A stretch of 64,000 bases of DNA from Deltaproteobacteria bacterium (GTDB lineage Bacteria > Bdellovibrionota > JACOXK01), in contig JACPKQ010000007.1 in the NCBI GenBank assembly GCA_016186995.1, positions 52,226 to 116,225 on the forward strand, read 5' to 3'. Shown here one piece after another: positions 4,257 through 23,080 of this stretch. Each line of letters starts with the position of its first letter. Within the stretch, counting starts at the first letter, position 1. A program made the position numbers and the translations under genes. Below the pieces are notes generated by a model. That model worked only from the letters and a program-made list of their open reading frames with translations, was not told the DNA's origin and did no database searches.

Positions 4257-4980
4257 TGTGACCAATACAAAAGCCGGTAAGCAATATGTTGGCGAGTCCT
4301 CATGTACACTTGAAAAGCGTAGGCAATGGCACATGAAGCAAGTTTACGGTGAAAAGAGACCTGCTGAAGGTAGTTTGCAGGAGGCGATTAAAAGAGATGA
4401 ACCTGAGTATTTTAAATGGAAAGTGCTTGCACGCTGTAGGTCGATAGATCAAGCTAACAGACTCGAACGAAAATTTATCAGAGAGTTTAATACTTCATAC
4501 CCACATGGTTACAATCTTCGGCGAGGTGGGACAGGCATTTCAAAAAAAGGTAAAAAAATATTGGTGAATGGGAAGCCTTTTGACTCTTACAGAGCTGCAG
4601 CTGATGCCCATGGTGTAAATATTGGAACATTTCAGGATAGGTTGTACGCGGGGTATTCACCCGAACAGGCTGCTGGTTTGATTCCGCTTGATAAAGTGCA
4701 TCCAAAATCACGTAAAATTAAAATAGATAATATAGAATATCCAACAATAAAAGATGCTGCTAAAGCTGCTGGTCAGCCTGCAAATAGAGTGAGAAATAGA
4801 ATTCACTCTGGCTGGTCTGTAGAAAAGGCGCTTAAAACACCATTTTCGAGAAGAGATACTCCTGTGAAAATTGATGGTACCACTTATTCATCAATGGGGG
4901 TTGCTGCAAGGAAATTAGGTATTAATTATGACACATTGAGATACAGGCTGAAAAAGCAAAGGAAGAACATGTATGTTTAA
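4195..4980 (+). CDS. GIY-YIG family homing-endonuclease-like protein with three C-terminal NUMOD-like repeats. Either it starts on TTG or it is the frameshifted continuation of 3447-4256.
   Basis: PVYSVTNTKAGKQYVGES...LEKRRQWH...FNTSYPHGYNLRRGG matches the GIY-x10-YIG motif, the conserved Arg and the catalytic Glu region. It is followed by VNGKPFDSYRAAADAHGVNIGTFQDRLYAGYSPEQAAG-type repeats. There is no in-frame ATG upstream of the GIY motif. Confidence 0.6.
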   Translation: MRKRLILKKGIIDLSQLPVYSVTNTKAGKQYVGESSCTLEKRRQWHMKQVYGEKRPAEGSLQEAIKRDEPEYFKWKVLARCRSIDQANRLERKFIREFNTSYPHGYNLRRGGTGISKKGKKILVNGKPFDSYRAAADAHGVNIGTFQDRLYAGYSPEQAAGLIPLDKVHPKSRKIKIDNIEYPTIKDAAKAAGQPANRVRNRIHSGWSVEKALKTPFSRRDTPVKIDGTTYSSMGVAARKLGINYDTLRYRLKKQRKNMYV

Positions 4981-10447: not shown

Positions 10448-12064
10448 TCAATGGATCAGCGCGCAGACTTTCCATGTAGAATCATAGCGCTTGAGATGAA
10501 TAAGAACTTTGTTTTTTGGAAATGACAGTATGGCTCTGTCGGGTGAAATAAGACGAAAGCGCCCGAATTGAAGTAGCGCATCAGCCGTCATATTCGAGGG
10601 GACAACTTTTCGAAAAAAATGAGAGAGTTCATTCGCAATAACATTTCTTCTGGAGAGGCTTTCTTGATGAACACTGTCCAGATAGCGCTGCCTTTTTTTT
10701 CTCTTAACTTCTTCTCGTGAAGTTTCACCCAGTCGATTTAACATCTGAAGCCTTTGTTTCCATTGAAGCAGATTTTGTGTGAGTGTCATGTGCTCTTGTT
10801 GTGTCAGGTTGTTTTTTAACAAATTTTCGATCTGAGAAATCTTGCTCTGACACAACCTTAAATCATTTTCCAACTGATCAAAGTGTTGGTCCACCTGCGC
10901 TTCCATCTCTTGAATTTTTTCTTGTACCGTTTTTGTTTCTGAAAATGCCAGTGGAAACCCATCCAGCTGAATAAAGAGTTCATCTATGGCAACAAATTGA
11001 TCTATAGTGTTAGCATGTAAATGTTCCTTTTGGAGAATGGATAAAAATTTTGTAGAATCGTTTTTTGCCTCTGCACGCAAAGCTTCTTTTTCTTCCAAAG
11101 AAAGTGTATCAAGCGCTTTTTTCCCCTCATCCACTCTCAGACGGCTTACTTCGGTAATTTTGCGAATTATTTTTTCATTTTCATCCCTGATTTGAACGAC
11201 CCCATTGCATTCTTGAACAACTGTGAGTGGGAATAATGAAGGCATCAATGAAAAAACAAAAGTCTTTTCGTTTGCCGCTGTCCCTTCAAATTCAAAGACT
11301 TCCACAGATAGTTTTTTCTTCTCCGCAAGATGATGAACGAAGATGGAATCTAATTTAATCGTTTTAATAGAGAGAAAACTTTTAATGTTTATTTTGGGAT
11401 AGATCTTCCAATCAATAGAAACTTTTTGGGGTTCCTTTTGCCCGGATTTTATCACTTCAAGATCAACAGAAGATTCATGGACTTTTGTCACCTTGATGAC
11501 TTCTCTATAGGGTCGATCTTCGGAGATCTCATATATTACATAATCTCCTTCTTGAACGCCCCCCCATAAATATTCTTTTGAATATTCGAAAGGATAAGAG
11601 ACAGAATCTTTCACATCTTCTTGATGTGTCACAACCTCAATATGTTCTATGGAGCGAAAAATTTCTGCCATGCGAAGATCCGCTTTTAAAAAGCTCTCTT
11701 CAGCCACAACATAGCCACTTAAAATGGCTCCACCGTCTGTAACCACCGCGGCTGCCAATAGGGGTTGGGTGACATCTTTTTCCACAATTTTAAGAGAAGA
11801 AAGATCTTGAAATTCAATTTGAATAAAATCAGCCTCTGATATTTTTTCAAAATCCACATCTCTTGAATAATAGAGACGAATGGGCGAAACAGATTTTTGT
11901 TCAACATCGAAACGAATTATTTTTTGTTCTTCTTGAGGATCTTTCGGTTTTTGAAAAGAGATCTCTACATCATACTGGCCTTCATTAAGAGTTGCTGAAT
12001 ATAAATTTACGGGGACCACAGATAGTGCGCACAATAGTGTCATGAAAAGGACATTCATCGCCAT
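10448..12064 (-). CDS. Secreted coiled-coil protein of unknown function
   Basis: Signal peptide MAMNVLFMTLLCALSVVPVNLYSA. A long Glu/Gln/Leu-rich heptad region lies in the C-terminal half. Confidence 0.4.
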   Translation of the reverse strand: MAMNVLFMTLLCALSVVPVNLYSATLNEGQYDVEISFQKPKDPQEEQKIIRFDVEQKSVSPIRLYYSRDVDFEKISEADFIQIEFQDLSSLKIVEKDVTQPLLAAAVVTDGGAILSGYVVAEESFLKADLRMAEIFRSIEHIEVVTHQEDVKDSVSYPFEYSKEYLWGGVQEGDYVIYEISEDRPYREVIKVTKVHESSVDLEVIKSGQKEPQKVSIDWKIYPKINIKSFLSIKTIKLDSIFVHHLAEKKKLSVEVFEFEGTAANEKTFVFSLMPSLFPLTVVQECNGVVQIRDENEKIIRKITEVSRLRVDEGKKALDTLSLEEKEALRAEAKNDSTKFLSILQKEHLHANTIDQFVAIDELFIQLDGFPLAFSETKTVQEKIQEMEAQVDQHFDQLENDLRLCQSKISQIENLLKNNLTQQEHMTLTQNLLQWKQRLQMLNRLGETSREEVKRKKRQRYLDSVHQESLSRRNVIANELSHFFRKVVPSNMTADALLQFGRFRLISPDRAILSFPKNKVLIHLKRYDSTWKVCALIH

Positions 12065-12274: not shown

Positions 12275-13582
12275 GTGAAAAAAGTTTTCTTTCAAATCTC
12301 AATGATGCTTTATGTTTCATTAACATTTGTGGGCTGCAACTGGTTTGACAACGATGATTCTAATGATGCTCCTTTTTTATCCACCTTGGGAGGTATTGCA
12401 AGCAGAATACATGATATGCCCCATCCATTTTCTCAGATTAAAACCACAAATGTGAATAACAATGAAATTTTTATAAAAGGCACTGTCAGTCCAGATGGGA
12501 GTACTTTTGAAGATAGGGCTTATAAGTATAAAGATCAAGGTAACGAATATGTTGAGATCAATTTTGCAAGCTCCAGAGAGGATCTTGGAAATGGCAGACA
12601 ACAATTCAGTCAAACGTTGGTATCCGGTCCGGGAGGACCTGTTGTGCCCACGGACTCTGTGCTGATTATTGGCGGAATTACATCGAAGGGTATTTCCAAT
12701 ACAGCTGAATTTTATAATCCCTCTGAAAATGTGATTAAATCTTTAGGGAATTTAAAAGTTGCTCGTTACGGCCACACCGTCACTGAGATCAAAAATTCAG
12801 GGACACCCTTAGATGGACAGTTTTTGGTCGTGGGGGGAATGGGAGTGGGTCAAGGCCTTGTAAGAAATGAGTTGGTTTCAACGATTGAATTGTTTGATCC
12901 TATGACAGGAACCTTTAGCGTTTTAAATGCCCAACTCAAAGTTGGTCGTGAGCAACACACGGCTACGCGTTTGGCAGATGGTCGTGTTCTCATTACAGGC
13001 GGACGAACCTCTAGTGGCGTGAGCAATTCGGGGGAAATTTTTGATCCGGCGACAGCGACATTTACTGAGATTCCCAATGCAATGGCGGATGAACGTGTTT
13101 TTCATACAGCACTCTATTTAGATAATAAAACTCCTACTGATTCAGCAGATGATGCTGTTTTGCTCGCGGGCGGTCAGGATTCCATGGGTTTGGTTAATGA
13201 CTCTGCTGATTTTTTTAATCCTGCAACAGGACTTTTTCAACCGGTCAATAGCATGATTCCGCAGCCCATTTATCAGCATGCTGCCACAGCACTTCCTGCA
13301 ACTTCACCGCATGATGCTGTTTTGACGGGGGGGATGACAAAAATGCCAACCTTTGACGAAAGTTCATCAGGAGTGACTTTACATATCACAAATCAGGTTG
13401 TTGTCTTTGATTACACACATACATCGGCTGGCCCTGACGGATTCTTCACGCAAACCAGAGATATGCTCAAAAAAAGAGCCATGCACAGCACCGATTCTAT
13501 GGGAACCAATAAACTTGTGATTTTGGGGGGTGTCGATGAAACTGCCCTTGCTCACACGACAGGTGAAGAGTACGGATTTTAA
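12275..13582 (+). CDS. Kelch / galactose-oxidase-like beta-propeller lipoprotein
   Basis: The lipobox LTFVGC follows a signal peptide. Six blades are recognisable by LIIGGITSKG, FLVVGGMGVGQG, VLITGGRTSSG, VLLAGGQDSMG, VLTGGMTKMP and LVILGGVDE. Confidence 0.6.
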   Translation: MKKVFFQISMMLYVSLTFVGCNWFDNDDSNDAPFLSTLGGIASRIHDMPHPFSQIKTTNVNNNEIFIKGTVSPDGSTFEDRAYKYKDQGNEYVEINFASSREDLGNGRQQFSQTLVSGPGGPVVPTDSVLIIGGITSKGISNTAEFYNPSENVIKSLGNLKVARYGHTVTEIKNSGTPLDGQFLVVGGMGVGQGLVRNELVSTIELFDPMTGTFSVLNAQLKVGREQHTATRLADGRVLITGGRTSSGVSNSGEIFDPATATFTEIPNAMADERVFHTALYLDNKTPTDSADDAVLLAGGQDSMGLVNDSADFFNPATGLFQPVNSMIPQPIYQHAATALPATSPHDAVLTGGMTKMPTFDESSSGVTLHITNQVVVFDYTHTSAGPDGFFTQTRDMLKKRAMHSTDSMGTNKLVILGGVDETALAHTTGEEYGF

Positions 13583-13682
13583 ATCTTAAGCGAATCTGCT
13601 TTTTATAAATATGACATAGATCATATTATTTCACCTACATGAGCGTACGATTTATAAATCGTTTTCTTTTATTGAGGAGATA

Positions 13683-15353
13683 TTGTTGTTGAAAAAGACG
13701 CGGAGTTTATTAATCACTTTTTCCGGTTATCCTTACACTCCTTCAAGTTTCTTACCTGATAACGGTTTAGCCAATTTAGCCGCATGTTTGAAAGAGGCGG
13801 GACACCAAACCTTAATACTGGACTTTAATACGCCACACACCATGGAAGGTCTTGTCAGTGATGAATGGAAAGAAATAAATCAGCACATTGTAGATGACAT
13901 CTCACAATGGTCCTCCAAAAATACGTCATTTTCAGGAATTCATAAAAAACTAAACAAAATTGATCAGTTATTAACACAAGGTTTTAAGCACATTGCTCAT
14001 CAGATCTGTCAGACTATCGAAAAGGAAAAAATTGATTGGGTTGGGTTGAAAGTATGGAATGGTGATGGCTATACGGCTTCATGCGTCATTGCTAAAATGA
14101 TCAAAAAGAATTTTAAAAATATGCCTATTCTTGCCGGAGGCCCTCAGATCGACTGGTTTGGCCCATTTTTCTTAGAAGTCTCTCCCCATTTTGACTTTGC
14201 TGCATTTGGAGAAGGTGAGCCCACCGTTGTTGCCTTTGCAGAAATGGTATTAGGTCAAAGAAAATTATCTGAGGTTCCAAATCTTTATTATCGTAAAGGT
14301 AAAAAAATTCAGCAAACGCAGGTTGTTCGTGTAAAAAACTTAGATACTATTCCAACGGCTTGTTATGATGAAGATGTTTATCCAGCTCTTTACACTAATC
14401 AAAAAATCAATATTGGTATTTTAGAAGAAAGCCGAGGATGTCCTATTCAGTGTTATTTTTGTGAACACCCAATCAAATCAGGAGCTGTTTTACGCAAGAA
14501 GTCTATTGCAAGAGTTATTGAGGATGTAAAAAATTTTCAAAAAACTCCTGGGTTCCAAGCATATAAATTGGCAGGTTCCTTCACCCCTTCAAAACACATT
14601 CAACAAATAGCAAAAGCTTTATTAGATTTGCCATTTCCAATACAGTATGTGGCTTTTGGCCATCTCAAAGATAGTGGCAACGATTTCGATCTCTTAAAAC
14701 GCTCAGGATGTGTTGCTCTTTTCTTCGGGTTGGAAACGGGAAGTGACCTGATTTTAGATAGTAAAATGAAAAAAGGCTATGAAAGACAACAAGCACTGAA
14801 AGCCCTTAAGGACTGTAAGAATGCAGGTATATTTTCGATCACAAGCATCATTTATCCTTCTGCCGGAGAAACTGAGGAATCCAGACAAGCCACTCTGGAT
14901 TTTATAGAAGAAATTCAGCCAGATTCCATTCCATGTCACTTTCCCATTATTTTACCTCGTACCCGGTGGTGTTTAGAGCCCGAACGATTTGGGTTTTCTT
15001 TTAATGCCCCCTATCATCATATGAAGGATTATCTTTCATTTTTTATTAATTATAAGCCTCGGCTTTTATATCCTCCGGAATTTTGGCCACCTCTGCCGTA
15101 CAAAATTGATGATAAACCTTTTTCGGTGTTTGCGAAGGAAACTTCAAAAATGACACAAACATTGGAAGACAGGGGGCATCTGACATTAATGTCAGATGAG
15201 GTTATGCTTATAGGAAAGCACTCTCAAAAACCATTCAATCACTTTAGAGATGAGTGTCGAAAAGCTCTTTTCTATGGTGATTCACAGAAATTAAAAACGC
15301 TTGTGTCAGATGTTAATTCGAGCCTTAAGCAAATGAAATGTACGATCCCGTAA
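13683..15353 (+). CDS. B12-binding-domain radical SAM enzyme (class B radical SAM)
   Basis: The N-terminal Rossmann-like B12-binding region is LAACLKEAGHQTLILDF. The radical SAM motif CPIQCYFC is Cx3Cx2C. TTG start with GAGGAG RBS. Confidence 0.75.
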   Translation: MLLKKTRSLLITFSGYPYTPSSFLPDNGLANLAACLKEAGHQTLILDFNTPHTMEGLVSDEWKEINQHIVDDISQWSSKNTSFSGIHKKLNKIDQLLTQGFKHIAHQICQTIEKEKIDWVGLKVWNGDGYTASCVIAKMIKKNFKNMPILAGGPQIDWFGPFFLEVSPHFDFAAFGEGEPTVVAFAEMVLGQRKLSEVPNLYYRKGKKIQQTQVVRVKNLDTIPTACYDEDVYPALYTNQKINIGILEESRGCPIQCYFCEHPIKSGAVLRKKSIARVIEDVKNFQKTPGFQAYKLAGSFTPSKHIQQIAKALLDLPFPIQYVAFGHLKDSGNDFDLLKRSGCVALFFGLETGSDLILDSKMKKGYERQQALKALKDCKNAGIFSITSIIYPSAGETEESRQATLDFIEEIQPDSIPCHFPIILPRTRWCLEPERFGFSFNAPYHHMKDYLSFFINYKPRLLYPPEFWPPLPYKIDDKPFSVFAKETSKMTQTLEDRGHLTLMSDEVMLIGKHSQKPFNHFRDECRKALFYGDSQKLKTLVSDVNSSLKQMKCTIP

Positions 15354-15617
15354 TGTCTCAAGGGTTTGAAAGTGAGCTAAATCATCTTCAGCCTCTAATG
15401 AGATAGGTATATTAAACTTGCTATCTACTTTTTCTTCCACCGCGGTGATAATATCGACAAGATCTAAAGAATCGATTGTTTTCTTGGGGCCAAATAATTC
15501 AGTATCAAGGGATTTTTGGAGTTTACTTCCTTCAAAACTGTTTTCATTGAACTCATCCACCACATCATAAATGAGCTGTGTCAAACTTTCTTTAGTGAAA
15601 TTCGAAAATTTAGCCAT
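15306..15617 (-). CDS. Discrete acyl carrier protein
   Basis: MAKFSNFTKESLTQLIYDVVDEF...GPKKTIDSLDLVDIITAVEEKV contains the DSL phosphopantetheine-attachment Ser. RBS AAGGAAAG precedes the ATG at 15617. It is divergent from the KAS III gene. The 3' end overlaps the radical SAM gene by 48 nt. Confidence 0.65.
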   Translation of the reverse strand: MAKFSNFTKESLTQLIYDVVDEFNENSFEGSKLQKSLDTELFGPKKTIDSLDLVDIITAVEEKVDSKFNIPISLEAEDDLAHFQTLETLRDRTFHLLKARINI

Positions 15618-15710
15618 ATCTTCTTTCCTTTTTTTTAAATATTTTAACACGCACTTAATATTGACGCAATTTTATTTATATGAAAAAGTCTCCAAGAGAA
15701 GGTTATTGTT

Positions 15711-16721
15711 GTGAATATAAAAATTAAAGCAATAGAATATTATTTGCCTGAAAAAACACTCAGTAATTGCGAGCTCGACAAAGAAAACCCTAGCTGGAGA
15801 ATGAAAACAGTTGAAGCTCGAACCGGTATTTTAAAGCGCCACATAGCAACGGAAGATGAAACAGCTTTAGACCTTGCTTTTAAAGCCTGTCAAAAGCTAT
15901 TTGAAAAACATGATGGTCTTCGACATCAGATTGACGGCATTCTCTTTTGCACACAAAGCCCTGATTACGTCATGCCTCAAAATGCATGTATCTTACACAA
16001 ACTTTTAGAATTACCTGAAAATACATTTGCTGTGGATATTAACATGGCATGTTCAGGGTATATCTACACTTTAAGTATTGCACGCGGATTAATTCACACG
16101 GGAATAGCCCACAATGTTCTGCTCATAAATGCTGACACTTATTCCAAATATATTCATGATAAGGATCGAGCCACACGCGTCATTTTTGGAGATGGGGGTG
16201 CTGTTTCTTGGATCACTTCTGCCGAATCTCACGAAGGTATTATCGATATGCAATGTGCTACGTCTGGAGCAAATTATGATAAATTTATGATCAAAGCAGG
16301 CGCTTGTCGTATACCCAAATCAGAAGAGACATCTGTGCCAACAACGGATAGCTCAGGAAATGTTCACACAATGGAAACCATTGAAATGGATGGAGCTGGA
16401 ATATTAAAATTTGTTTCTGAAAAAGTGCCAAAACAAGTAGTATCAATTTTAGAGCGCAATAACTACACAATAGAAGATGTAGATTTATTTATCTTTCACC
16501 AAGCTAGTAAAATGGTCTTAGATTCTTTATCCCGATTATTGAGAATTAAAAAAGAAAAAGTTTTTTCCAATCTTCAAAACATAGGTAATACTGTTTCCGC
16601 ATCTATTCCCATTGCACTCAAAGATGCCATGGAGGAAGGAAAAATTTCAAAAGGGGATACTGTGTTAATTTCGGGCTTTGGAGTCGGCCTTTCATGGGGT
16701 ACTGCACTTATAAAAATATAA
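15711..16721 (+). CDS. 3-oxoacyl-ACP synthase III (FabH-like KAS III) family condensing enzyme
   Basis: The Cys-His-Asn triad context is present: NMACSGY (Cys), FHQASKM (the HQAN motif) and NIGNTVSASIPIAL (the GNTSAAS motif). GTG start. Confidence 0.8.
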   Translation: MNIKIKAIEYYLPEKTLSNCELDKENPSWRMKTVEARTGILKRHIATEDETALDLAFKACQKLFEKHDGLRHQIDGILFCTQSPDYVMPQNACILHKLLELPENTFAVDINMACSGYIYTLSIARGLIHTGIAHNVLLINADTYSKYIHDKDRATRVIFGDGGAVSWITSAESHEGIIDMQCATSGANYDKFMIKAGACRIPKSEETSVPTTDSSGNVHTMETIEMDGAGILKFVSEKVPKQVVSILERNNYTIEDVDLFIFHQASKMVLDSLSRLLRIKKEKVFSNLQNIGNTVSASIPIALKDAMEEGKISKGDTVLISGFGVGLSWGTALIKI

Positions 16722-16736
16722 AAGGAGAATAAGTCT

Positions 16737-17537
16737 ATGTTGACAAGAATTGCTGAAGACAAACAAGTGATGGATCATGTGGAATCGGTCAATGCTTACG
16801 ATGAAGGGGGCAAAAAGGGAAACCTTCTTCCCACGTATTATCTAGCCGCTGATATTATTTGTCAGTTGGCACCACAAGAGGGACACGCTGTGGATATTGC
16901 CTGCGGTAATGGGTTGCTTACTTTGACATTAGCACAATCTTTGCCCAACTTTAAATTTCTGGGATTAGAACTTTCTTCCACCATGCTTGAAAGAGCACAA
17001 GAAAATTCTAAATTATTTAACAAGCACGTTGAATTCACTCAAGCAAGCATGACTGACTTAAGTTCAATTCCTTCACATTCATCGGACTTAACACTGATCA
17101 CTTATGCTCTGCACCACACTGATTCAGAGAAAGATGCGCGAAGCATATTGTCTGAAATAAATCGCATTACAAAGAAAGACGGAGCTATTTTTATTATGGA
17201 TCTGATTCGTCCTCGAAGTCATATGATATATAAATTTATTTCAAAGGCACTTGGAACAAAAAATCCATATTTACAAAAAGACTTTGAAGCTTCTCTTAGA
17301 GCATCTTATAACACCTCAGAATTTCGAAGGCTCCTAGAATCCGCAGGTTTGACGAACCTGACATATCATCGTGATCTTATTTTACACATGGCTTTTAGAC
17401 CGCATCGCCAGGCTCAAAAAAACTCACCTGTTTTTTTCAATCAAGGTGAAAACTTACTTAAAACAAAAATGATTTACAACACATCAAGGCTTATTTTTAA
17501 CTTGAAGAAAAGGCTCCATCCACGATGGGAAGTGTAA
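16737..17537 (+). CDS. Class I SAM-dependent methyltransferase
   Basis: Motif I is AVDIACGNGLLT. Motif post-I is LGLELS. Motif II is IFIMDLI. Confidence 0.75.
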   Translation: MLTRIAEDKQVMDHVESVNAYDEGGKKGNLLPTYYLAADIICQLAPQEGHAVDIACGNGLLTLTLAQSLPNFKFLGLELSSTMLERAQENSKLFNKHVEFTQASMTDLSSIPSHSSDLTLITYALHHTDSEKDARSILSEINRITKKDGAIFIMDLIRPRSHMIYKFISKALGTKNPYLQKDFEASLRASYNTSEFRRLLESAGLTNLTYHRDLILHMAFRPHRQAQKNSPVFFNQGENLLKTKMIYNTSRLIFNLKKRLHPRWEV

Positions 17538-19198
17538 CGCACCCGGTATTGATTAAAAATGTGCTTCGGTTTGTTTCAGAGCAAAAAACGAACGTTTATT
17601 GTGAACTTGATCACAGGAAATTTCAGGGAACTCTTGCAATCCAAAAGGAAAACCTTGAAATGAGTATTCCTGGTATGAAACCAGACTCTTCTTGTATAAA
17701 AACCGGCGATACAATGACCGTTTCCTTTCAGGCGGGCGGTCAGGTTTATTCTTTTGTAACAACAATAGTAAGTATGACGTCACATGAACAATTTTTAACT
17801 TCTTATCCATCTAAAATCTCTAAAATGGGGCGTAGAAAATGCCCCAGATATGCTATTCCAAAGGATATTCATTTTTTTATCTCTTTCAGCGATCCGCAAG
17901 ATACATCCACAAAGATGACGGGAAGAGTAATTGATTTTAATACAACCGGCTTAAGGTTCAAGTTAGATCAGCACAAACTTAAACTTTCACAATATAAGTC
18001 TCCTATAATGTATACGCTTCATTTGTCTCCAAAGAAAATAATTCAAGTTAAGGGAGAGGTGAAGCACGAGATTGTTCATAATGATTCCTATTATTATGGG
18101 CTTTCTTTTTTAAATCTAAAATTAAGTGAGCAACAAGAGCTTTTTCAATACATCCTTGATACATTTTATCCTTCCCTGACTCATCGATGGGAAGTTGAGT
18201 TTGATAAATTCTGGGGACTTCTGGAAGATTCTGGATATCTTGGTGAAAAAGACAGTGTTTTTTTTCAAGGAATGCAGTGCCAAGCTCAAAAAGTATGGGG
18301 GACACTTGCCAAAGATCCATTTAAAATTTCTCAGGATCTGGTCTATGTCAGAAATGGCAAACCACTAGGCACCATTTCTGCAACGCGACTCTATGAAAAA
18401 AGCTGGCTTTTCCACCAATTGGCCGTTCATCCTAAAAATATTGCAGAAGGAACGGTTCATGCTGACCTCTATCTGGGTGCTTTTGGGGATTTTATCCTTA
18501 ACAACCCACACATAGATTTTTTAATGGGATTCTACAATATTCATAATACATGGCATCGAAAATTTTTTGACTATTTCGGTCAAACAGCTTCAGATGCTTC
18601 TAAATTCTATGTTGAGCATTTTCACCTGTTTGAGCCCCTCATACCTGAGAGTCCCTATGTTGACCCCTCTTATCCATGGGAGCTTGCAACAGCCGTTGGT
18701 GAAGAAAAGAAATGGATTCTCAAGCACATTCAAAAATGTGTCCCTATGATTATACAAGAAGCGTGTAATTTAGATGCTACCTCATTTGAAATTCCTAAAA
18801 CCCGGAAAACTTATATTGAAAAGGGTCTTGCACGAGATCGGAAACTTCTGATCTTAAAAAAAGATAGAGAAATCGTTGCTTTTGCACTTTTAGAAAACGC
18901 AACGACAGGCATTAATATATTCAATCTACTTGATCAGGCTTTTTTGTTTTATCTGGAAGAAACGCCACAGATTCAAACACTCCTTGTGAAGGGAGTTATG
19001 AATCACTACCGATCGCTTGGAAAAAAATCTTTTCTCTTACTTGCTCAAAAAGAAAACCTGGAACCCTATAGGACACTGAGGTTACAAGAGATATGTATTC
19101 TCAAGAGAGCTGTTTTTCATAGAGATCTTTTTTATGATTATCGCGACTATCTTTTTCTCATGTTCTCAAAAAGCTTGCACCTTTCTGCTCTTGTTTAA
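17525..19198 (+). CDS. PilZ-domain protein (YcgR-N-like plus PilZ) with an uncharacterised C-terminal domain of about 330 aa
   Basis: The PilZ c-di-GMP-binding motifs are RRKCPR (the RxxxR motif) and DFNTTGLRF (the D/NxSxxG motif). The C-terminal domain has no recognisable motif; it might be an acyltransferase. Confidence 0.5.
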   Translation: MGSVTHPVLIKNVLRFVSEQKTNVYCELDHRKFQGTLAIQKENLEMSIPGMKPDSSCIKTGDTMTVSFQAGGQVYSFVTTIVSMTSHEQFLTSYPSKISKMGRRKCPRYAIPKDIHFFISFSDPQDTSTKMTGRVIDFNTTGLRFKLDQHKLKLSQYKSPIMYTLHLSPKKIIQVKGEVKHEIVHNDSYYYGLSFLNLKLSEQQELFQYILDTFYPSLTHRWEVEFDKFWGLLEDSGYLGEKDSVFFQGMQCQAQKVWGTLAKDPFKISQDLVYVRNGKPLGTISATRLYEKSWLFHQLAVHPKNIAEGTVHADLYLGAFGDFILNNPHIDFLMGFYNIHNTWHRKFFDYFGQTASDASKFYVEHFHLFEPLIPESPYVDPSYPWELATAVGEEKKWILKHIQKCVPMIIQEACNLDATSFEIPKTRKTYIEKGLARDRKLLILKKDREIVAFALLENATTGINIFNLLDQAFLFYLEETPQIQTLLVKGVMNHYRSLGKKSFLLLAQKENLEPYRTLRLQEICILKRAVFHRDLFYDYRDYLFLMFSKSLHLSALV

Positions 19199-20594
19199 GT
19201 GGGAGTGAAATAATGAACGATGTGCCCTCAGATGGCTTGCTGTTTGCGCGTATTGTTCCTGAATGACTTTCTATAATCTTTTTACAAATTGCAAGCCCAA
19301 GACCCGTTCCCGTTCCTCTAGGTTTTGTCGTGAAAAAAGGTTCAAATATTTTTTTCTGAATATCAGGCGCAATTCCCTCTCCATTATCTCTAACCTCAAT
19401 TTCAATATGATGATTCAGTAATCGTGATGATAATTGAATGTGTGGTGTTTCACTATGAGATACTGCATCTTTAGCATTGTTTAATAAGTTTAATAAAACT
19501 TGCTCAAGTTGATTCGGCTCAGCCATAATAGAATGAATATCGGACTGAAGATTTTTGGTAATTCTAATGGATGCTTTTTTTGCCTTTGGTTCAAATAGCA
19601 AAACTGCGTTTTCAATGATTTCTTCGATTTCAGTTTCAACAAAAACAGGTTTTGAATAGGAAAAATTTCTCAAGTGTTCTGTAATCTTACTGATACTGTT
19701 GCACCCCTTATCAATGCCTTCCAAAAATTCTCTCAATTCACCCTTATATAAATTTCTATTTTCCAAGATTTCATGGAGCATTTCAGAATAGCCTTCAATA
19801 ACACCGAGTGGACTTTTGACCTCATGGATAATACCCGAGGTTAACTCCCCAATAGCTCCCATTTTCTCCGATTGAATGAGTTGTATCTGAGTCTCTTCTA
19901 ATTCTTTGATTTTGTTTTTTAAGTCATCGTTAAGTTGACTCACCTCATCATACTTTTCTTCAAGCATGCGATGGTTCTTTCTCAGTTCCTCAATAGCATG
20001 AAGATGCGTTTTGGGACGAATCACAAATTGATACCACAATCTTTGATACCAGGGAATACGAAGGTTCCAGGAAATTATGAAATGACAACTCGGCCCTTTT
20101 TTTACAGGAACTACCGTGGCTGACTTAACCCCCATATGTGCAGATGTTTTCTCAATAACACCTCTGGCAATATCAAAGAACGCCTGAGAGGGCTCATAGT
20201 CTGGTTTAAATGTATACCCAAGAGTCACCTTGTTCGGTGAGTTATTAACAACCTCACACTGAACACATCTAAACATAGAATTTACGTAATAAGGAAACTG
20301 TTTATAGATTGCTCTAGGAGAAGCAAGAAGGTGTATCATAATGCTTATAAAGCCAAAGGCTTTAGTATTTACAATTTCTCTGCCAATTTCTACAAAAACG
20401 TCTGGTTCAGGAAAGTGCTTTCGAATTTTTTCATATATTTTTAAGAGAGTTTCATAATCAATCCAATTATTTTGATCAAGAAAATAATCAATAGAATAGG
20501 GCATGTCTTTTAAAAATTCATTCAAATCGATGTCTTTTTCTTTTAAAAAAACAAATAGAATATTGAGCGCACGACAACTCACTTCTTTTTTCAT
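19158..20594 (-). CDS. Cytoplasmic sensor histidine kinase
   Basis: The H box is IHEVKSPLGVI. The HATPase boxes are in NAKDAV...VRDNGEGI...GTGLGLAI. There is no TM segment. The 3' end converges on and overlaps the PilZ gene by 41 nt. Confidence 0.8.
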   Translation of the reverse strand: MKKEVSCRALNILFVFLKEKDIDLNEFLKDMPYSIDYFLDQNNWIDYETLLKIYEKIRKHFPEPDVFVEIGREIVNTKAFGFISIMIHLLASPRAIYKQFPYYVNSMFRCVQCEVVNNSPNKVTLGYTFKPDYEPSQAFFDIARGVIEKTSAHMGVKSATVVPVKKGPSCHFIISWNLRIPWYQRLWYQFVIRPKTHLHAIEELRKNHRMLEEKYDEVSQLNDDLKNKIKELEETQIQLIQSEKMGAIGELTSGIIHEVKSPLGVIEGYSEMLHEILENRNLYKGELREFLEGIDKGCNSISKITEHLRNFSYSKPVFVETEIEEIIENAVLLFEPKAKKASIRITKNLQSDIHSIMAEPNQLEQVLLNLLNNAKDAVSHSETPHIQLSSRLLNHHIEIEVRDNGEGIAPDIQKKIFEPFFTTKPRGTGTGLGLAICKKIIESHSGTIRANSKPSEGTSFIISLPLKQEQKGASFLRT

Positions 20595-20727
20595 GCTTTA
20601 ATCTCCTCTTCAACGCTTTTCGTGAAAAAAATGAGAAAACTTAAAAAAAAGTTTAAGTTCTTACTTGCAATGAATTTTGCAGCAATGCTATACTTTTCTA
20701 AACTATTTCAAAAAAGGAGATACACAT

Positions 20728-21462
20728 ATGCAGACCCAAGTGCACAAGCAGTTGAATCCGACGCTTAGAGCGCCTTTTAAGAGTTATCAACCTACCTCTG
20801 GAGAGGAGTTTTGGGATGTTGTTGTTCGAGAAACAGCTGAAGCAAAGCGTAAATTATATGCAGATCCTTGTTTTAAGTCTCTTTGTGATGGAACTATGCC
20901 ACTCAATCAGTATAAAGAATGGCTTAAGGAGACTTATCATTTTACAAGAAATACCCCTCGATTTTTATCTGCAGCAGGCTCCCAAGTAGAAGATGACAAG
21001 CAATTCGTGAGAACACGCTTTTTTCAACACGCGGTTGAAGAAAATGGTCATCACTTAATGGCCCTCAAAGATCTCAGGAATCTGGGGGTTGATGAGGAAA
21101 GTGTGAAGAAAACCTATCCCTGTGCCGGCACAACGGCCATTGTTTCTATGCATTATTACTTAGCACATTACACAAATCCTATTGGTATTTTTGGGGCTGT
21201 TTTTTGCTTTGAAGGCTTGGCCTTTGACCTTTGTGACCAGTGGGCAAAGAATTTAAAGGCTCACCATGGCCTTTCTAATAATTGCCTGACATTTATCATT
21301 TCACATGGCCATTTTGATATAGAACATATTAAAGAGGCCAAAGAGGTCATTAATCATGAGGTTATAACGGAAACAGACAGGAGAGATATTATTTATACAG
21401 CTAATAAAATGTATGATTATTATCGCCTTACCTTTGAGGAAATTGGCCAACTCAAAGATTAA
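20728..21462 (+). CDS. Heme-oxygenase-like diiron oxidase (CADD / PqqC-like 'iron-containing redox enzyme' family)
   Basis: The HO-like helical fold carries conserved His/Glu ligand positions in FFQHAVEENGHH...CFEGLA...ISHGHFDIEH. RBS AAGGAGA precedes ATG 20728. An upstream in-frame extension to 20677 lacks an RBS. Confidence 0.55.
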   Translation: MQTQVHKQLNPTLRAPFKSYQPTSGEEFWDVVVRETAEAKRKLYADPCFKSLCDGTMPLNQYKEWLKETYHFTRNTPRFLSAAGSQVEDDKQFVRTRFFQHAVEENGHHLMALKDLRNLGVDEESVKKTYPCAGTTAIVSMHYYLAHYTNPIGIFGAVFCFEGLAFDLCDQWAKNLKAHHGLSNNCLTFIISHGHFDIEHIKEAKEVINHEVITETDRRDIIYTANKMYDYYRLTFEEIGQLKD

Positions 21463-21481
21463 GCACATTTTTACTTTAGTT

Positions 21482-21509
21482 CCTGCATACTCTGACCGGA
21501 GTATGCAGG
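21482..21509 (+). promoter_or_regulatory. Perfect 11-bp inverted repeat (CCTGCATACTC-N6-GAGTATGCAGG) enclosing the RBS and ATG of the downstream hybrid kinase gene
   Basis: The arms are 21482-21492 and 21499-21509. The GGAG RBS and the ATG at 21503 lie in the right arm. No U-tract follows on either strand. Confidence 0.45.
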
Positions 21510-23080
21510 ACAAAAAAGTCATTCTCATTATCGATGATAATAAAGATAATATCAGGATTGTTAGACATAGACTTAAGGCTATAGATCACGTCAACATACA
21601 CTCTGTCGAAAGTGGCGTAAACATCCTTTCTATTGTCAAAACATTAAATCCAGATCTCATTATTTTAGACCTTCTGCTTCCAAACATAAGCGGCTTTCAA
21701 ATAGCCAAAATCTTAAAATCGAACTCTTCTACGAAAAAAATACCGATTATTATGATATCAGCAATTTTTGATGAAGCTGATGTTCATGCTAGTTTAAAAT
21801 TGGGTGTTGAGAGATTTTATCCAAAATCAGAAATTTTTAAAAACTTTTCGAAACTAAATCATGTAGCATTTCTAGCCTCCATTAAAAATATATTAAGCCA
21901 TTCTGAGATAGCCTCCGAGGAAAAAATGGTTGGAAAAATTTTCTCTATTGGTAAGAGTTTGCAATCTCAAAATTTAAATCAACGGCTCCGTCAGAAGAAA
22001 TTTTACATACACTCCGAAAATGTTTCATCACATATATTCAAAAATATTAAAGAATTTATTCCTCAAGTTATCATATTTAATGCAAACAAGATTGCAGATT
22101 TTAAATCCTGGATGGCAGAATATAAAAAATCCAAAATTTTAGTACCAGTGATTGTCATTATTGAATCATTCTCAGAAGACGGAAGTACCGATAGTTTAGA
22201 GGTAGAAGCTTGTTTTCACTCTCCTCTTGATTATGATTATTTTGAAAATTATCTCAAGATATTATGTGATGAGGACGTGCTTAAGATATCGCAAAAAATA
22301 TTGCGTCACAACATGATTTCGAAAATACATGAGCTTGAAACTGTATATCAAAATTTAAAAAAATTAGATCAAAGGAAATCAGATTTTATTACCATTGCCA
22401 GCCATGAGCTTCAAACACCACTTACTATTATAAAGTCTGCACTGTCTTTCCTTCAAGAAATGAAACATACTTCTCCACCATTTCAGAAATTATTTGAAGC
22501 CATGGAAAGAAACGTAACCAAAATGGTGAATATTGTAAGAACATATTTGATGATTAATAATATAGAATCTTTTAACATGAAACTATCCAAAAAGGAGTTT
22601 TCTATTTCTGAGCTTACTCACGATGTTATTACAGCTTATGATCCCATCATTGCAGAAAATAATATGGCTATTTTACTTGATATTCCAGATCTCCTTCCCC
22701 TAGCTGAAGTCGATGGAGAAAGATTTAAAGATATCTTAGGGCATCTTTTAGAAAACGCGATTAAATTTTCATCGAAAGGTAAGGAAATAAAGATTTCAGC
22801 TAAGTATGAGAAAGATGATTTACATATCATCGTTGAAGATTTTGGAAAAGGCATATCCAAAGAAGATATAAACACAATTTTTGAAAAGTATGCCCAACTT
22901 GAAGATCCATTATTTCGGCAAGCACAGGGCAGTGGACTTGGGTTATATATTGTAAAAAGATTGGTAGAGCTTCATGGAGGACATATTTTCGTCAAAAGCA
23001 CCCCTCACAAAGGAAGCCGCTTTCATATCATTTTTCCTCAAGCCAAAGTTAAGCAAAAAGAAATTTCACAAGCAGCATAA
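21503..23080 (+). CDS. Hybrid sensor kinase: N-terminal receiver, a second degenerate receiver-like domain, then HisKA and HATPase_c
   Basis: The receiver is VILIIDDNKDN...IILDLLLPNISG...IIMISA. The H box is IASHELQTPLT. The ATP-binding region is in NAIKFS...VEDFGKGI...GSGLGLYIV. Confidence 0.8.
   Translation: MQDKKVILIIDDNKDNIRIVRHRLKAIDHVNIHSVESGVNILSIVKTLNPDLIILDLLLPNISGFQIAKILKSNSSTKKIPIIMISAIFDEADVHASLKLGVERFYPKSEIFKNFSKLNHVAFLASIKNILSHSEIASEEKMVGKIFSIGKSLQSQNLNQRLRQKKFYIHSENVSSHIFKNIKEFIPQVIIFNANKIADFKSWMAEYKKSKILVPVIVIIESFSEDGSTDSLEVEACFHSPLDYDYFENYLKILCDEDVLKISQKILRHNMISKIHELETVYQNLKKLDQRKSDFITIASHELQTPLTIIKSALSFLQEMKHTSPPFQKLFEAMERNVTKMVNIVRTYLMINNIESFNMKLSKKEFSISELTHDVITAYDPIIAENNMAILLDIPDLLPLAEVDGERFKDILGHLLENAIKFSSKGKEIKISAKYEKDDLHIIVEDFGKGISKEDINTIFEKYAQLEDPLFRQAQGSGLGLYIVKRLVELHGGHIFVKSTPHKGSRFHIIFPQAKVKQKEISQAA

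What the first reader, a model, noticed from the sequence alone, without database searches (positions are those of the whole stretch)
12275..19198. Candidate acyl-ACP-based lipid or natural-product biosynthetic cluster
The cluster holds a discrete, atypically long ACP and a FabH-type KAS III with an intact Cys-His-Asn triad. It also has a class-B (B12-dependent) radical SAM enzyme, which usually performs C-methylation or other difficult C-C/C-H chemistry on lipids or antibiotics. An O/N/C-methyltransferase, a Kelch-propeller lipoprotein and a c-di-GMP-binding PilZ protein complete it, and histidine kinases flank it on both sides. Related toolkits are seen in dialkylresorcinol (DarB-type KAS III), ornithine-lipid/N-acyl-amino-acid and hopanoid-methylation loci. 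I do not recognise this exact combination with PilZ and Kelch partners.
Basis: partly seen in the sequence, partly recalled or inferred. Interest (0 to 1): 0.6.

Follow-up and report, generated by a model that had tools for sequence, protein, structure and literature searches.

The report
c-di-GMP-gated acyltransferase operon with KAS III/ACP

Summary
Observation confirmed. Window 12275-19198 holds a Kelch lipoprotein, a B12-binding radical SAM enzyme, a divergent antisense ACP-like gene, a FabH-type KAS III with an intact Cys-His-Asn triad, a class-I methyltransferase and a PilZ protein, with histidine kinases on both sides.

Interpretation partly supported. This is not the primary fab locus, and the KAS III is not DarB-like.

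New points:
- The 557-aa PilZ protein is a YcgR-like PilZN-PilZ receptor fused to a tandem GNAT fold that no Pfam model detects (AF2 pLDDT 93.6). Its family has at least 835 cluster representatives. Members include a Myxococcaceae protein with the architecture published for PixB, and 12 proteins over 1,400 aa; the four scanned are NRPS with the module at the N terminus.
- Seven of seven stand-alone loci have a histidine kinase one or two genes away. A methyltransferase also recurs.
- The KAS III/ACP pair is 51-59% identical to pairs in ACP-SDR-MBL-KASIII-AMP-ligase cassettes of sugar-nucleotide loci, against 29% to E. coli FabH.
- In the nearest relative genome, ACP|KASIII-MTase-PilZ-GNAT|HK is kept intact. 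The radical SAM and a heme-oxygenase-like gene lie 6 kb away, and Kelch is absent.

Best reading: a PixB-type, c-di-GMP-gated acyltransferase operon that recruited a dedicated acyl-ACP supply. The acceptor is unknown.

The parts
13683..15353 (+). B12-binding (class B) radical SAM enzyme, 556 aa, from an uncharacterised family. A probable but movable member of the island.
   Evidence: PF02310 plus PF04055, with CxxxCxxC at residue 253. No NCBIfam equivalog cut-off is reached; the best is ApyD at 101 of 750 bits. Best PDB sequence hits are the B12 rSAM methylases CysS and TokK, E about 1e-9. More than 200 homologues occur across phyla. It lies in the same island in the relative genome but 6 kb from the operon, directly downstream of an X-domain (tandem-GNAT) protein in L006, and alone in L003.
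15306..15617 (-). Divergent acyl-carrier-protein-like gene, 103 aa from Met12 (the ORF extends to 15650). The putative phosphopantetheine Ser sits in the DSLD motif. It is transcribed divergently from KAS III.
   Evidence: TIGR00517 E 0.004 and no Pfam hit. Homologues lie next to KAS III in L007, L009, L011, L012, L014 and L015. D49 and S50 are invariant in alignment A5. The A5 profile hits only carrier proteins in the PDB, weakly. An AGGAAAG sequence lies upstream of the ATG at 15617.
15711..16721 (+). FabH-type beta-ketoacyl-ACP synthase III (336 aa) from a non-housekeeping clade.
   Evidence: PF08545 plus PF08541. NF006829 scores 279 bits (cut-off 249); TIGR00747 scores 264 (cut-off 292). 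Triad C114/H263/N293. Best PDB hit is 3gwa at 262 bits, against 137 for E. coli FabH and 118 for PqsD. It is 51-59% identical to KAS III genes in ACP-SDR-MBL-KASIII-AMP-ligase cassettes.
16737..17537 (+). Class-I SAM-dependent methyltransferase (266 aa); substrate unknown.
   Evidence: Methyltransf_25/11/31/12. The UbiE family is the best NCBIfam hit at 63 bits, far below its cut-off. It is 65% identical to the gene in the same position in L007. A class-I MTase also flanks the Myxococcaceae PilZ-GNAT gene, but the two share only generic similarity.
17525..18169 (+). YcgR-like c-di-GMP receptor part of the 557-aa protein: PilZN (about residues 1-100) plus PilZ (about 101-215).
18182..19198 (+). 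Tandem GNAT-fold acyltransferase domain ('X', about residues 220-557) of the same protein. No Pfam model covers it.
19158..20594 (-). Histidine kinase (478 aa) with an N-terminal domain of about 200 aa that has no Pfam hit. It is convergent with the PilZ-GNAT gene and overlaps it by 41 bp.
   Evidence: HisKA plus HATPase_c. It is 57% identical over its full length to the HK in the same position in L007. An HK lies within two genes of PilZ-GNAT in 7 of 7 stand-alone loci.
20677..21462 (+). Heme-oxygenase-like (Haem_oxygenas_2/TENA family) putative di-iron oxidase. The probable true start is Met17 at 20725. It is co-conserved in the island.
   Evidence: PF14518 E 1e-23. It is 69% identical to its L007 homologue, the most conserved protein of the island. 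Best PDB hit is 3dde; the hit to CADD is only weak.
21413..23080 (+). Response-regulator/histidine-kinase hybrid. The probable true start is near 21503, 40 bp after the oxidase stop codon.
   Evidence: ORF and translation. It is 41% identical to the REC-HisKA-HATPase protein in the L007 island, with the alignment starting at residue 34.
12275..13582 (+). Kelch-repeat lipoprotein. It is an upstream neighbour and probably not part of the system.
   Evidence: Kelch repeats. No homologue appears in the L007 island or in any other fetched locus.

Best explanation
The core of the locus is the operon KASIII-MTase-(PilZN-PilZ-tandem GNAT), with a divergent dedicated ACP and a convergent cognate histidine kinase.

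The 557-aa protein is a c-di-GMP receptor fused to a tandem-GNAT acyltransferase. It has the same kind of architecture as M. xanthus PixB and works like the Caulobacter c-di-GMP effector HfsK.

Proposed mechanism (inferred):
1. The KAS III condenses a short acyl-CoA primer with malonyl-ACP on the dedicated carrier protein, giving a short beta-ketoacyl-ACP. This is what the same KAS III/ACP clade is placed to do in sugar-N-acylation cassettes.
2. The methyltransferase, and possibly the B12 radical SAM enzyme and the di-iron oxidase encoded in the same conserved island, tailor the acyl group or the acceptor.
3. The tandem GNAT transfers the acyl group to an amine acceptor. The acceptor could be a small molecule, an envelope sugar or a signalling protein.
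5. The output is functionally tied to the adjacent two-component system.

Shown: gene content, folds, motifs, operon structure, synteny and family distribution. Inferred: substrates, direction of regulation, the acceptor, and the involvement of the rSAM and the oxidase.
For: Fold and c-di-GMP motifs:
- The AF2 model has pLDDT 93.6 and pTM 0.90.
- Its N-terminal half matches YcgR, PP4397 and MrkH. Its C-terminal half matches tandem GNATs.
- RxxxR is conserved in 96% of family members, and the X-domain residues R288/Y290/W343/R439/E457/N464 are conserved in all architectural classes.

Operon and synteny:
- The operon has a 15-bp gap and a 13-bp overlap.
- The relative genome has the same order, ACP(-)|KASIII-MTase-PilZX|HK(-), at 47/65/65/44/57% identity, while the flanks differ.
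- The rSAM (63%), the oxidase (69%) and the RR-HK (41%) are in the same island.

Origin of the KAS III/ACP pair:
- The pair is 51-59% and about 20-40% identical, respectively, to pairs in other phyla.
- Pfam confirmed the ACP-SDR-MBL-KASIII-AMP-ligase cassette beside aminotransferase, acyltransferase and sugar-nucleotide genes in L010 and L011. Same gene sizes and spacing, not scanned, in L014 and L015.

Links to other genes:
- An X-domain protein lies directly upstream of an rSAM homologue in L006.
- An HK is adjacent in 7 of 7 stand-alone loci, and MTase plus HK sit downstream of the Myxococcaceae homologue.

Precedents:
- PixB binds c-di-GMP and needs its acetyltransferase domain (PMC8316039).
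- HfsK is a tandem-GNAT c-di-GMP effector proposed to acylate an exopolysaccharide (PMC5362036).
- Among the top 150 hits, 12 proteins over 1,400 aa carry the module at their N terminus. The four scanned (P0139, P0162, P0166, P0227) are NRPS, which places it in carrier-protein chemistry.
Against: - Outside the window and its one relative, no PilZ-GNAT locus examined has a KAS III or an ACP. The family as a whole therefore probably uses a common donor such as acetyl-CoA, and use of acyl-ACP here rests on operon linkage alone.
- The window protein lacks the canonical GNAT Q/RxxGxG/A loop, and its second PilZ motif has Asn instead of Ser. Neither catalysis nor c-di-GMP binding is assured, although PixB also lacks that Ser and still binds.
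- The ACP is only weakly recognisable.
- No FabD, phosphopantetheinyl transferase, acceptor-synthesis gene or exporter lies nearby.
- The position of the rSAM is not fixed, and it occurs without any partner in L003.
- The window genome is rich in histidine kinases, five in 64 kb. HK adjacency in this genome alone would be weak evidence.
Confidence: 0.45

Rival explanations
1. Two or three unrelated modules happen to lie together. A PixB-like signalling trio (MTase, PilZ-GNAT, HK) acetylates a protein or small molecule from acetyl-CoA. The KAS III/ACP pair and the radical SAM enzyme serve other, separate functions.
For: Most PilZ-GNAT loci have no KAS III or ACP. The Myxococcaceae locus has the trio alone. 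The rSAM moves about and can stand alone. In M. xanthus, the PixB acetyltransferase domain is needed and there is no reported link to fatty-acid genes.
Against: KASIII-MTase-PilZ-GNAT are translationally coupled (15-bp gap, 13-bp overlap). The same arrangement, with the divergent ACP, persists in a relative whose proteins are only 44-65% identical and whose flanks are unrelated. The KAS III/ACP clade normally travels with an acyltransferase, which here would be missing unless the GNAT fills that role.
Confidence: 0.25
2. One reading: a biosynthetic cluster for a methylated membrane lipid or an antibiotic-like natural product (dialkylresorcinol, ornithine-lipid/N-acyl amino acid or methylated-lipid type). 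In this view the radical SAM enzyme acts as a C-methylase and PilZ and Kelch are accessories.
For: ACP, KAS III, a SAM MTase and a B12 rSAM are all present. In Elusimicrobia-type loci, homologues of this rSAM sit beside FabF-type ketosynthases, further B12 rSAMs and FadL-like porins. A tandem GNAT could be an N-acyl amino acid synthase.
Against: DarB, StlD, HpnR, HpnJ and TIGR04072 all score far below their cut-offs. There are no DarA, OlsA/B, hopanoid, elongation (FabF/G/Z/I), thioesterase or export genes within 10 kb or more. Kelch is not conserved. KAS III alone makes only a C4-C6 beta-ketoacyl unit. The closest relatives of the KAS III serve sugar acylation, not lipid synthesis.
Confidence: 0.15
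3. A signal synthase with its sensor. The operon makes a small hydrophobic N-acyl signal when c-di-GMP is high, and the adjacent histidine kinase senses it, as in CqsA/CqsS or LuxM/LuxN-type pairs.
For: An HK is invariably adjacent. The full-length HK, including its unknown N-terminal domain, is conserved with the operon. FadL/Toluene_X porins lie in related loci L007, L021 and L005. Acyl-ACP-using GNAT-fold enzymes include the LuxI-type synthases (established knowledge).
Against: The window HK has no recognised ligand-binding domain. Whether it is membrane-bound was not tested. There is no Toluene_X gene in the window; the nearby porin at 23091-24197 is Porin_O_P-like. The fold search did not return LuxI-type synthases among the top matches. 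The support is purely contextual.
Confidence: 0.1
4. This is simply the primary fatty-acid synthesis (fab) locus.
For: KAS III passes the broad NF006829 subfamily threshold and has the FabH triad.
Against: It is 29% identical to E. coli FabH and scores below the fabH equivalog cut-off. No plsX, fabD, fabG, acpP or fabF is found in the 64 kb. The ACP fails PP-binding.
Confidence: 0.02

Closest known systems
PixB (MXAN_2604) of Myxococcus xanthus: PilZ-PilZ-GNAT c-di-GMP effector (PMC8316039)
   Same: - PilZ module(s) N-terminal to a GNAT acyltransferase.
- RxxxR is present but the Ser of the second motif is missing, as in the window protein.
- pixB is thought to form an operon with two downstream genes.
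- A Myxococcaceae family member (P0127, E 8e-33 to the window protein) is followed by a class-I MTase and a hybrid HK, the same trio as in the window.
   Different: - PixB-type proteins are about 800 aa, with an extra N-terminal receiver-like region and an extra PilZ domain.
- No KAS III, ACP, rSAM or di-iron oxidase lies nearby.
- The substrate of PixB is unknown.
- I could not obtain the PixB sequence, so its homology to the window protein is inferred from the Myxococcaceae homologue and the published architecture.
HfsK of Caulobacter crescentus: tandem-GNAT c-di-GMP effector proposed to acylate holdfast polysaccharide (PMC5362036)
   Same: A soluble tandem-GNAT enzyme whose activity or localisation is switched by c-di-GMP. 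It is proposed to transfer an acyl group to an amine on a sugar polymer. This fits the sugar-acylation ancestry of the window KAS III/ACP pair.
   Different: HfsK has no PilZ domain: it binds c-di-GMP through surface and C-terminal arginines, and it is FemX-like. The window locus contains no polysaccharide genes.
ACP-SDR-MBL-KASIII-AMP-ligase cassettes in sugar-nucleotide/polysaccharide loci (L010 Oligoflexia, L011 Flavobacteriaceae; same gene sizes and spacing in L014 Chloroflexia and L015 Bacteroidetes, not scanned with Pfam)
   Same: The same KAS III clade (53-59% identity in these loci) and the same divergent ACP family with an LDSLGLVNL-type motif. An N-acyltransferase is encoded alongside (GNAT Acetyltransf_3 or hexapeptide).
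   Different: The window lacks the SDR, MBL-fold protein, AMP-ligase, aminotransferase, glycosyltransferases and sugar-nucleotide enzymes. Its ACP is inverted. Its acyltransferase is the PilZ-tandem GNAT.
Housekeeping FabH (E. coli, T. thermophilus)
   Same: The fold, the two Pfam domains, the Cys-His-Asn triad and the length.
   Different: 29% identity. It scores 137 bits (E. coli) and 180 bits (T. thermophilus), against 262 for the B. pseudomallei paralogue 3gwa. There is no fab gene context.
Class B (cobalamin) radical SAM methylases: CysS, TokK, PhpK, HpnR, ApyD
   Same: An N-terminal B12-binding domain plus a radical SAM core with CxxxCxxC. A CobA adenosyltransferase gene lies beside the homologue in L007.
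   Different: No equivalog threshold is reached: the best score is 101 of 750 bits. It belongs to a separate, widespread family of about 550 aa with no characterised member.
cAMP-regulated protein lysine acetyltransferases of mycobacteria (cNMP-binding domain fused to GNAT), cited as a parallel in PMC8316039
   Same: A cyclic-nucleotide sensor domain fused N-terminally to a GNAT enzyme, with allosteric activation of the enzyme.
   Different: A different sensor domain and ligand. The GNAT is single rather than tandem, and the target is a protein, using acetyl-CoA.

Membership tests
FabH / KAS III condensing enzymes | ACP_syn_III and ACP_syn_III_C domains, with the Cys-His-Asn catalytic triad | tested here: met
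   PF08545 E 1e-21 and PF08541 E 3e-32.
FabH / KAS III condensing enzymes | Housekeeping equivalog score and fab operon context (plsX-fabH-fabD-fabG-acpP-fabF) | tested here: not met
   TIGR00747 scores 264 bits, below its cut-off of 292. No fab genes occur in the 64-kb window.
DarB/StlD dialkylresorcinol ketosynthases | Score above the family threshold, with DarA/DarC neighbours | tested here: not met
   NF053539 scores 61 bits (cut-off 550) and NF005293 scores 69 (cut-off 450). The neighbours are an MTase and a PilZ-GNAT gene.
Acyl carrier protein | Small helical protein with a conserved Asp-Ser-Leu phosphopantetheine site | tested here: inconclusive
   DSLD is present, and D49 and S50 are invariant in 8 homologues. 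However, Pfam PP-binding is not hit, TIGR00517 gives E 0.004, hhalign probability to E. coli AcpP is 23%, and the profile hits only carrier proteins in the PDB at E of 1e-3 or weaker.
Class B (B12-binding) radical SAM | N-terminal cobalamin-binding domain plus radical SAM core with CxxxCxxC | tested here: met
   PF02310 E 5e-12 and PF04055 E 1e-15. CPIQCYFC at residue 253.
Hopanoid methylases HpnR/HpnJ, ladderane-type TIGR04072, PhpK, ApyD | Equivalog score cut-off | tested here: not met
   HpnR 35/650, HpnJ 86/578, TIGR04072 82/360, PhpK 96/600, ApyD 101/750.
YcgR-like PilZ c-di-GMP receptors | PilZN plus PilZ beta-barrel fold | tested here: met
YcgR-like PilZ c-di-GMP receptors | RxxxR and (D/N)xSxxG binding motifs | tested here: inconclusive
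   RRKCPR at 103-108 is present. The second motif is DFNTTG, Ser to Asn. Asn or Thr at this site occurs in several family members, and PixB also lacks the Ser yet binds c-di-GMP.
YcgR-like PilZ c-di-GMP receptors | Measured c-di-GMP binding | not testable with these tools
   This needs ITC, DRaCALA or MST on purified protein.
PixB-type PilZ-GNAT effectors | PilZ module(s) fused N-terminally to a GNAT acyltransferase domain | tested here: met
   AF2 model with PDB fold matches.
PixB-type PilZ-GNAT effectors | Sequence homology to PixB itself | not tested
   The PixB sequence was not obtainable with the tools. A Myxococcaceae MAG homologue (P0127) matches the window protein at E 8e-33 over residues 58-549.
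GNAT acyltransferases | GNAT fold | tested here: met
GNAT acyltransferases | Acyl-CoA pyrophosphate-binding loop Q/RxxGxG/A | tested here: not met
   A regular-expression scan finds no such motif in the 557-aa protein. The family's conserved residues are instead R288, Y290, W343, R439 and E457.
Ornithine-lipid / N-acyl amino acid synthases (OlsB, NAS) | Match to the family models | tested here: not met
   The PilZ-GNAT protein has no NCBIfam hit at E below 0.01, and none of the ten proteins scanned across 8.9-21.5 kb hits an OlsB or NAS model.

The most novel reading that the evidence does not exclude
The PilZ-tandem-GNAT module is a c-di-GMP-gated initiation or acyl-loading device for carrier-protein-dependent assembly. 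In this window it stands alone and draws on a dedicated KAS III/ACP pair. In Clostridia and other lineages the same module, with all its conserved residues, is fused to the N terminus of NRPS megasynthases, for example WP_036940527.1 of Pseudobacteroides cellulosolvens (PilZ-X-C-A-T-TE). That would be direct, post-translational second-messenger control of secondary-metabolite or lipid-signal biosynthesis, with the product read by the neighbouring histidine kinase.
Probability: 0.2. Interest if true: 0.8.

Novelty: new variant of a known kind. Interest (0 to 1): 0.55.

Why it matters
c-di-GMP effectors are mostly known to control motility, adhesin and exopolysaccharide machines, and transcription. 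Enzymes gated directly by PilZ domains are few, and the substrate of the one studied PilZ-GNAT protein (PixB) is unknown.

This locus gives that family a concrete chemical context: a dedicated ACP and KAS III, an MTase, and nearby a B12 rSAM and a di-iron oxidase. That makes the donor and the product experimentally approachable.

The analysis also shows three further things:
- The family is large, with at least 835 cluster representatives at 50% identity.
- It is linked to histidine kinases in all seven stand-alone loci examined here.
- It is fused to NRPS assembly lines in cultured Clostridia.

If the acyl-transfer model holds, it would connect second-messenger signalling directly to small-molecule or envelope acylation chemistry.

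Tried and rejected
- Word-indexed homologue searches with the PilZ-GNAT protein, and with its family alignment, returned only the protein itself.
- Single-sequence AlphaFold gave an unusable model, pLDDT 35.
The metagenome scan with subgroup alignment A3 gave one 2-kb contig.
- The afdb50 fold library was unavailable.
- tblastn of the PilZ-GNAT protein against plasmids found nothing.
- The promoter and terminator scan of 11.9-21.6 kb was not above shuffled expectation (33 against 28.9; 10 against 7.3), so no operon boundaries were drawn from it.
- A 92-aa ORF beside the multidomain ACC in L006 was tested as a possible ACP and rejected.
- Literature searches for PilZ-NRPS fusions found nothing relevant. 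A search for 3-hydroxybutanoyl/FabH/ACP sugar-acylation cassettes gave no directly useful paper.
- Rejected readings: primary fab locus, DarB-type resorcinol cluster, hopanoid methylation, ornithine-lipid synthesis, and Kelch as a cluster member. Reasons are given under the rivals and the membership test.
- The window MTase and HK share only generic similarity with those next to the Myxococcaceae homologue. The MTase-GNAT-HK trio is therefore a recurrence of gene types, not demonstrated orthology.

Full report
**Observation**

The window is low-GC (about 36%). Its radical SAM protein is identical to one annotated from a 'Deltaproteobacteria bacterium' MAG, and the next relatives are Bdellovibrionota-type MAGs.

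- A Kelch-repeat protein with a lipoprotein-like signal, 12275-13582.
- A B12-binding radical SAM enzyme, 13683-15353, with CPIQCYFC at residue 253.
- A FabH-type KAS III, 15711-16721.
- A class-I SAM methyltransferase, 16737-17537.
- A PilZ-domain protein, 17525-19198.
- Histidine kinases at 8936-10429 and 19158-20594.

The ACP is an antisense ORF, 15306-15650. Its likely start is at 15617, behind an AGGAAAG sequence. It fails Pfam PP-binding but carries DSLD. It matches TIGR00517 at E 0.004 and PDB ACPs at E about 0.1. A profile of eight homologues hits only carrier proteins in the PDB, best E 1e-3. It is therefore a divergent carrier protein; the identification is reasonable but not proven.

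**KAS III**

The protein passes the broad NF006829 subfamily cut-off but not the fabH equivalog (264 < 292). DarB/StlD models score only 61-69 bits. In the PDB the best match is the Burkholderia pseudomallei paralogue 3gwa at 262 bits, against 137 for E. coli FabH and 118 for PqsD.

A scan of one genome per species found 11 loci with 51-59% identical KAS III genes. They come from Phycisphaerae, Oligoflexia, Flavobacteriaceae, Rhodopirellula, Chloroflexia, Bacteroidetes, Planctomycetales, Ignavibacteria and Omnitrophota.

tblastn shows a homologue of the window's ACP-like protein 0.7-1.7 kb upstream of the KAS III in five of these loci. The alignment keeps an LDSLGLVNL-type motif.

Pfam annotation of two loci shows a recurrent cassette, ACP-SDR-MBL-KASIII-AMP-ligase. 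It is embedded among a DegT aminotransferase, GNAT or hexapeptide acyltransferases, glycosyltransferase, epimerases and GDP-mannose dehydratase (L011; L010). L014 and L015 have ORFs of matching size and spacing between the ACP homologue and KAS III, but I did not scan them.

The KAS III/ACP pair therefore belongs to a clade whose usual job, judged by context, is to build a short acyl group on a private carrier protein for transfer to an amino sugar.

No fab, polysaccharide or GGDEF/EAL genes occur anywhere in the 64 kb.

**The PilZ protein**

Pfam sees only PilZ, at residues 103-211. A faint Acetyltransf_1 signal (E 0.066) appears in the C-terminal 350 residues. A full HMMER scan of 1.84 billion cluster representatives found 835 relatives at E below 1e-3 and 337 below 1e-10. 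Most cover residues 55-550 of the query.

With a 104-sequence alignment, AlphaFold gave a confident model, pLDDT 93.6 and pTM 0.90. A single-sequence run had failed.

The family profile also hits MrkH and YcgR by sequence at E 1e-12.

RRKCPR (103-108) is intact. The second motif reads DFNTTG, with Asn for Ser. Asn or Thr occurs there in several relatives.

The tandem GNAT lacks the canonical Q/RxxGxG/A loop. It does have a family-wide set of conserved residues: R288, Y290, W343, R439, E457 and N464.

**Family architectures and literature**

Four kinds of family member were seen.
- X-only proteins of about 350-450 aa.
- PilZN-PilZ-X proteins of about 550 aa, like the window protein.
- Proteins of about 680-810 aa with an extra N-terminal receiver-like region and an extra PilZ domain.
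- Proteins over 1,400 aa with the module at their N terminus, 12 among the top 150 hits. The four scanned are NRPS: P0139 PilZ-X-C-A-T-C, P0162 ending in a reductase, P0166 with three modules, and P0227.

One NRPS fusion, P0227, is WP_036940527.1 of the cultured Pseudobacteroides cellulosolvens, with the order PilZ-X-C-A-T-TE. All 12 large fusion proteins keep the conserved X residues and RxxxR, with minor exceptions.

The literature holds one studied protein of this architecture, M. xanthus PixB (two PilZ domains plus a GNAT acetyltransferase).
- It binds c-di-GMP in vitro although it lacks the motif-2 Ser.
- It needs its acetyltransferase domain for motility control.
- It needs all of its domains for development.
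- Its substrate is unknown (PMC8316039).

A Myxococcaceae MAG protein (P0127) is the seventh-best hit to the window protein, at E 8e-33. I could not fetch the PixB sequence, so its membership in this family is inferred.

Caulobacter HfsK is a functional parallel. It is a tandem-GNAT c-di-GMP effector without a PilZ domain, proposed to acylate holdfast polysaccharide (PMC5362036). I found no paper on PilZ-NRPS fusions.

**Gene context**

In the nearest relative genome (GCA_040960175; L007) the order is as follows:
- ACP-like (-), 47% identical
- KAS III, 65%
- MTase, 65%
- PilZ-GNAT, 44%
- HK (-), 57% over its full length
- RR
- RR-HK (-), 41%
- heme-oxygenase-like protein, 69%
- Toluene_X porin
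- rSAM, 63%
- a 181-aa protein
- CobA (-)

The flanks are unrelated to those of the window, and there is no Kelch gene. Three conclusions follow.
- ACP|KASIII-MTase-PilZ-GNAT|HK is a conserved core. The operon is tight in both genomes (in the window, a 15-bp gap and a 13-bp overlap).
- The rSAM, the oxidase and the RR-HK belong to the same conserved island, but their positions are not fixed.
- Kelch and the 538-aa unknown protein upstream are not part of it.

In other stand-alone PilZ-GNAT loci a histidine kinase lies within two genes every time.
- L021: HK, then an ICMT-like MTase and Toluene_X.
- L022: HK, then a sigma-54 RR and another RR.
- L023: ThiF, then HK and an RR-HD protein.
- L006: a divergent HK-RR on one side and the rSAM homologue directly downstream.
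- L025 (Myxococcaceae): MTase, then a hybrid HK.

With the window and L007 this makes 7 of 7. The window genome is itself rich in HKs, five in 64 kb, so the cross-phylum recurrence carries the weight.

The MTases and HKs of L025 and the window share only generic similarity. What recurs is therefore a set of gene types.

The rSAM family has more than 200 homologues across Elusimicrobia, Omnitrophota, Armatimonadota and others. It occurs alone in L003. In L004 and L005 it sits with other B12 rSAMs, FabF-like ketosynthases, an ICMT-like MTase, ThiF, Toluene_X and HKs.

The ThiF next to the rSAMs in L004 and the ThiF next to PilZ-GNAT in L023 both hit the same NCBIfam model best (NF006077; 228 and 222 bits). 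This hints at a wider, loosely connected neighbourhood network that I could not resolve.

**Mechanism**

Shown:
- the folds, motifs, operon structure, synteny and family distribution.

Inferred from the families involved:
- KAS III condenses an acyl-CoA primer with malonyl-ACP on the private carrier protein, giving a short beta-ketoacyl-ACP.
- The MTase, and possibly the rSAM and the di-iron oxidase, tailor the acyl group or the acceptor. The nearest solved sequence relatives of the rSAM are the cobalamin-dependent methylases CysS and TokK, at E about 1e-9.
- The tandem GNAT moves the acyl group to an amine.
- c-di-GMP, acting through the YcgR-like module, switches the enzyme.
- The adjacent two-component system either responds to the product or is its target.

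The chief weakness is that KAS III/ACP accompany PilZ-GNAT only in this lineage. Use of acyl-ACP as donor therefore rests on operon linkage plus the analogy with the sugar-acylation cassettes, where an acyltransferase always accompanies the pair. I put this reading at 0.45.

Rivals:
- Unrelated modules lying together, with acetyl-CoA as the donor: 0.25.
- A signal synthase with its sensor kinase: 0.1.
- The primary fab locus: about 0.02.

**Comparison and novelty**

PilZ-GNAT effectors (PixB), c-di-GMP-regulated tandem GNATs (HfsK), KAS III/ACP acylation cassettes and class B rSAM enzymes are each known kinds. What I did not find described is:
- their combination in one conserved operon and island;
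- the recognition that the C-terminal domain is a Pfam-invisible tandem GNAT;
- the size of the family;
- its constant histidine-kinase partnership;
- its fusion to NRPS.

I rate this a new variant of a known kind, with interest about 0.55. The most novel reading not excluded is that the PilZ-tandem-GNAT module acts as a c-di-GMP-gated initiation device for carrier-protein-dependent assembly lines. I give that a probability of about 0.2; it would deserve about 0.8 if true.

Noticed in passing
P0227 / L024:10001-15631 (Pseudobacteroides cellulosolvens WP_036940527.1); also P0139, P0162, P0166 and eight other large proteins: The PilZ-tandem-GNAT module is fused to the N terminus of NRPS megasynthases (PilZ-X-C-A-T-TE, ...-R and three-module forms), with the conserved X-domain residues and RxxxR retained. 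I found no literature on PilZ-NRPS fusions.
   Followed up: partly
L004:3538-4311 and L023:1864-2649: The same ThiF-like subfamily (best NCBIfam model NF006077/PRK08223; 228 and 222 bits, below its cut-off of 266) lies next to the rSAM family in an Elusimicrobia-type locus and next to a PilZ-GNAT gene in a Firmicutes MAG. ICMT-like methyltransferases and FadL/Toluene_X porins recur in L004, L005, L007 and L021. This may be a wider conserved neighbourhood network of unknown function.
   Followed up: partly
L010:1635-6316, L011:8285-12362 (likely also L014 and L015): A five-gene cassette, ACP-like/SDR/MBL-fold/KAS III/AMP-ligase, lies inside sugar-nucleotide or polysaccharide loci in Oligoflexia and Flavobacteriaceae. 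The Chloroflexia and Bacteroidetes loci have ORFs of matching size and spacing but were not scanned. Its ACP escapes Pfam PP-binding in both loci where it was scanned (L010, L011).
   Followed up: partly
window 20677-21462: A heme-oxygenase-like (Haem_oxygenas_2/TENA) putative di-iron oxidase is the most conserved protein of the island, 69% identical to its L007 homologue. Its best PDB match is the uncharacterised 3dde, and it only weakly resembles CADD. The RR-HK appears to be co-transcribed 40 bp downstream.
   Followed up: partly
window 24260-29407 (-): A 1715-aa multidomain signalling protein: Ser/Thr kinase, AAA_16 ATPase, TPR, GAF, HisKA and HATPase_c. With it, the 64-kb window holds five histidine kinases.
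   Followed up: no
window 3447-4256 and 4195-4980 (+): Two adjacent, overlapping ORFs carry NUMOD1 and I-TevI-type DNA-binding repeats, which are homing-endonuclease DNA-binding modules, with no nuclease domain detected. A DUF2779 protein lies nearby at 958-2445.
   Followed up: no
window 15306-15353 and 19158-19198: There are two convergent 3'-end overlaps. The ACP-like gene overlaps the rSAM gene by 48 bp, and the HK overlaps the PilZ-GNAT gene by 41 bp. In the relative genome L007 the corresponding genes do not overlap.
   Followed up: no
window 10448-12064 (-), 35627-36508, 38252-39903, 46138-48834, 62838-63929: Several sizeable ORFs (270-540 aa) have no Pfam match at all. The 504-aa ORF at 49096-50610 has only a weak dockerin hit.
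   Followed up: no
L006:1-1551: A very large (over 1835 aa) single-chain acetyl-CoA carboxylase lies about 3 kb upstream of the X-domain/rSAM pair in that genome. It has biotin carboxylase, BCCP, ACC_central and carboxyltransferase domains, a layout like that of eukaryotic ACC.
   Followed up: no
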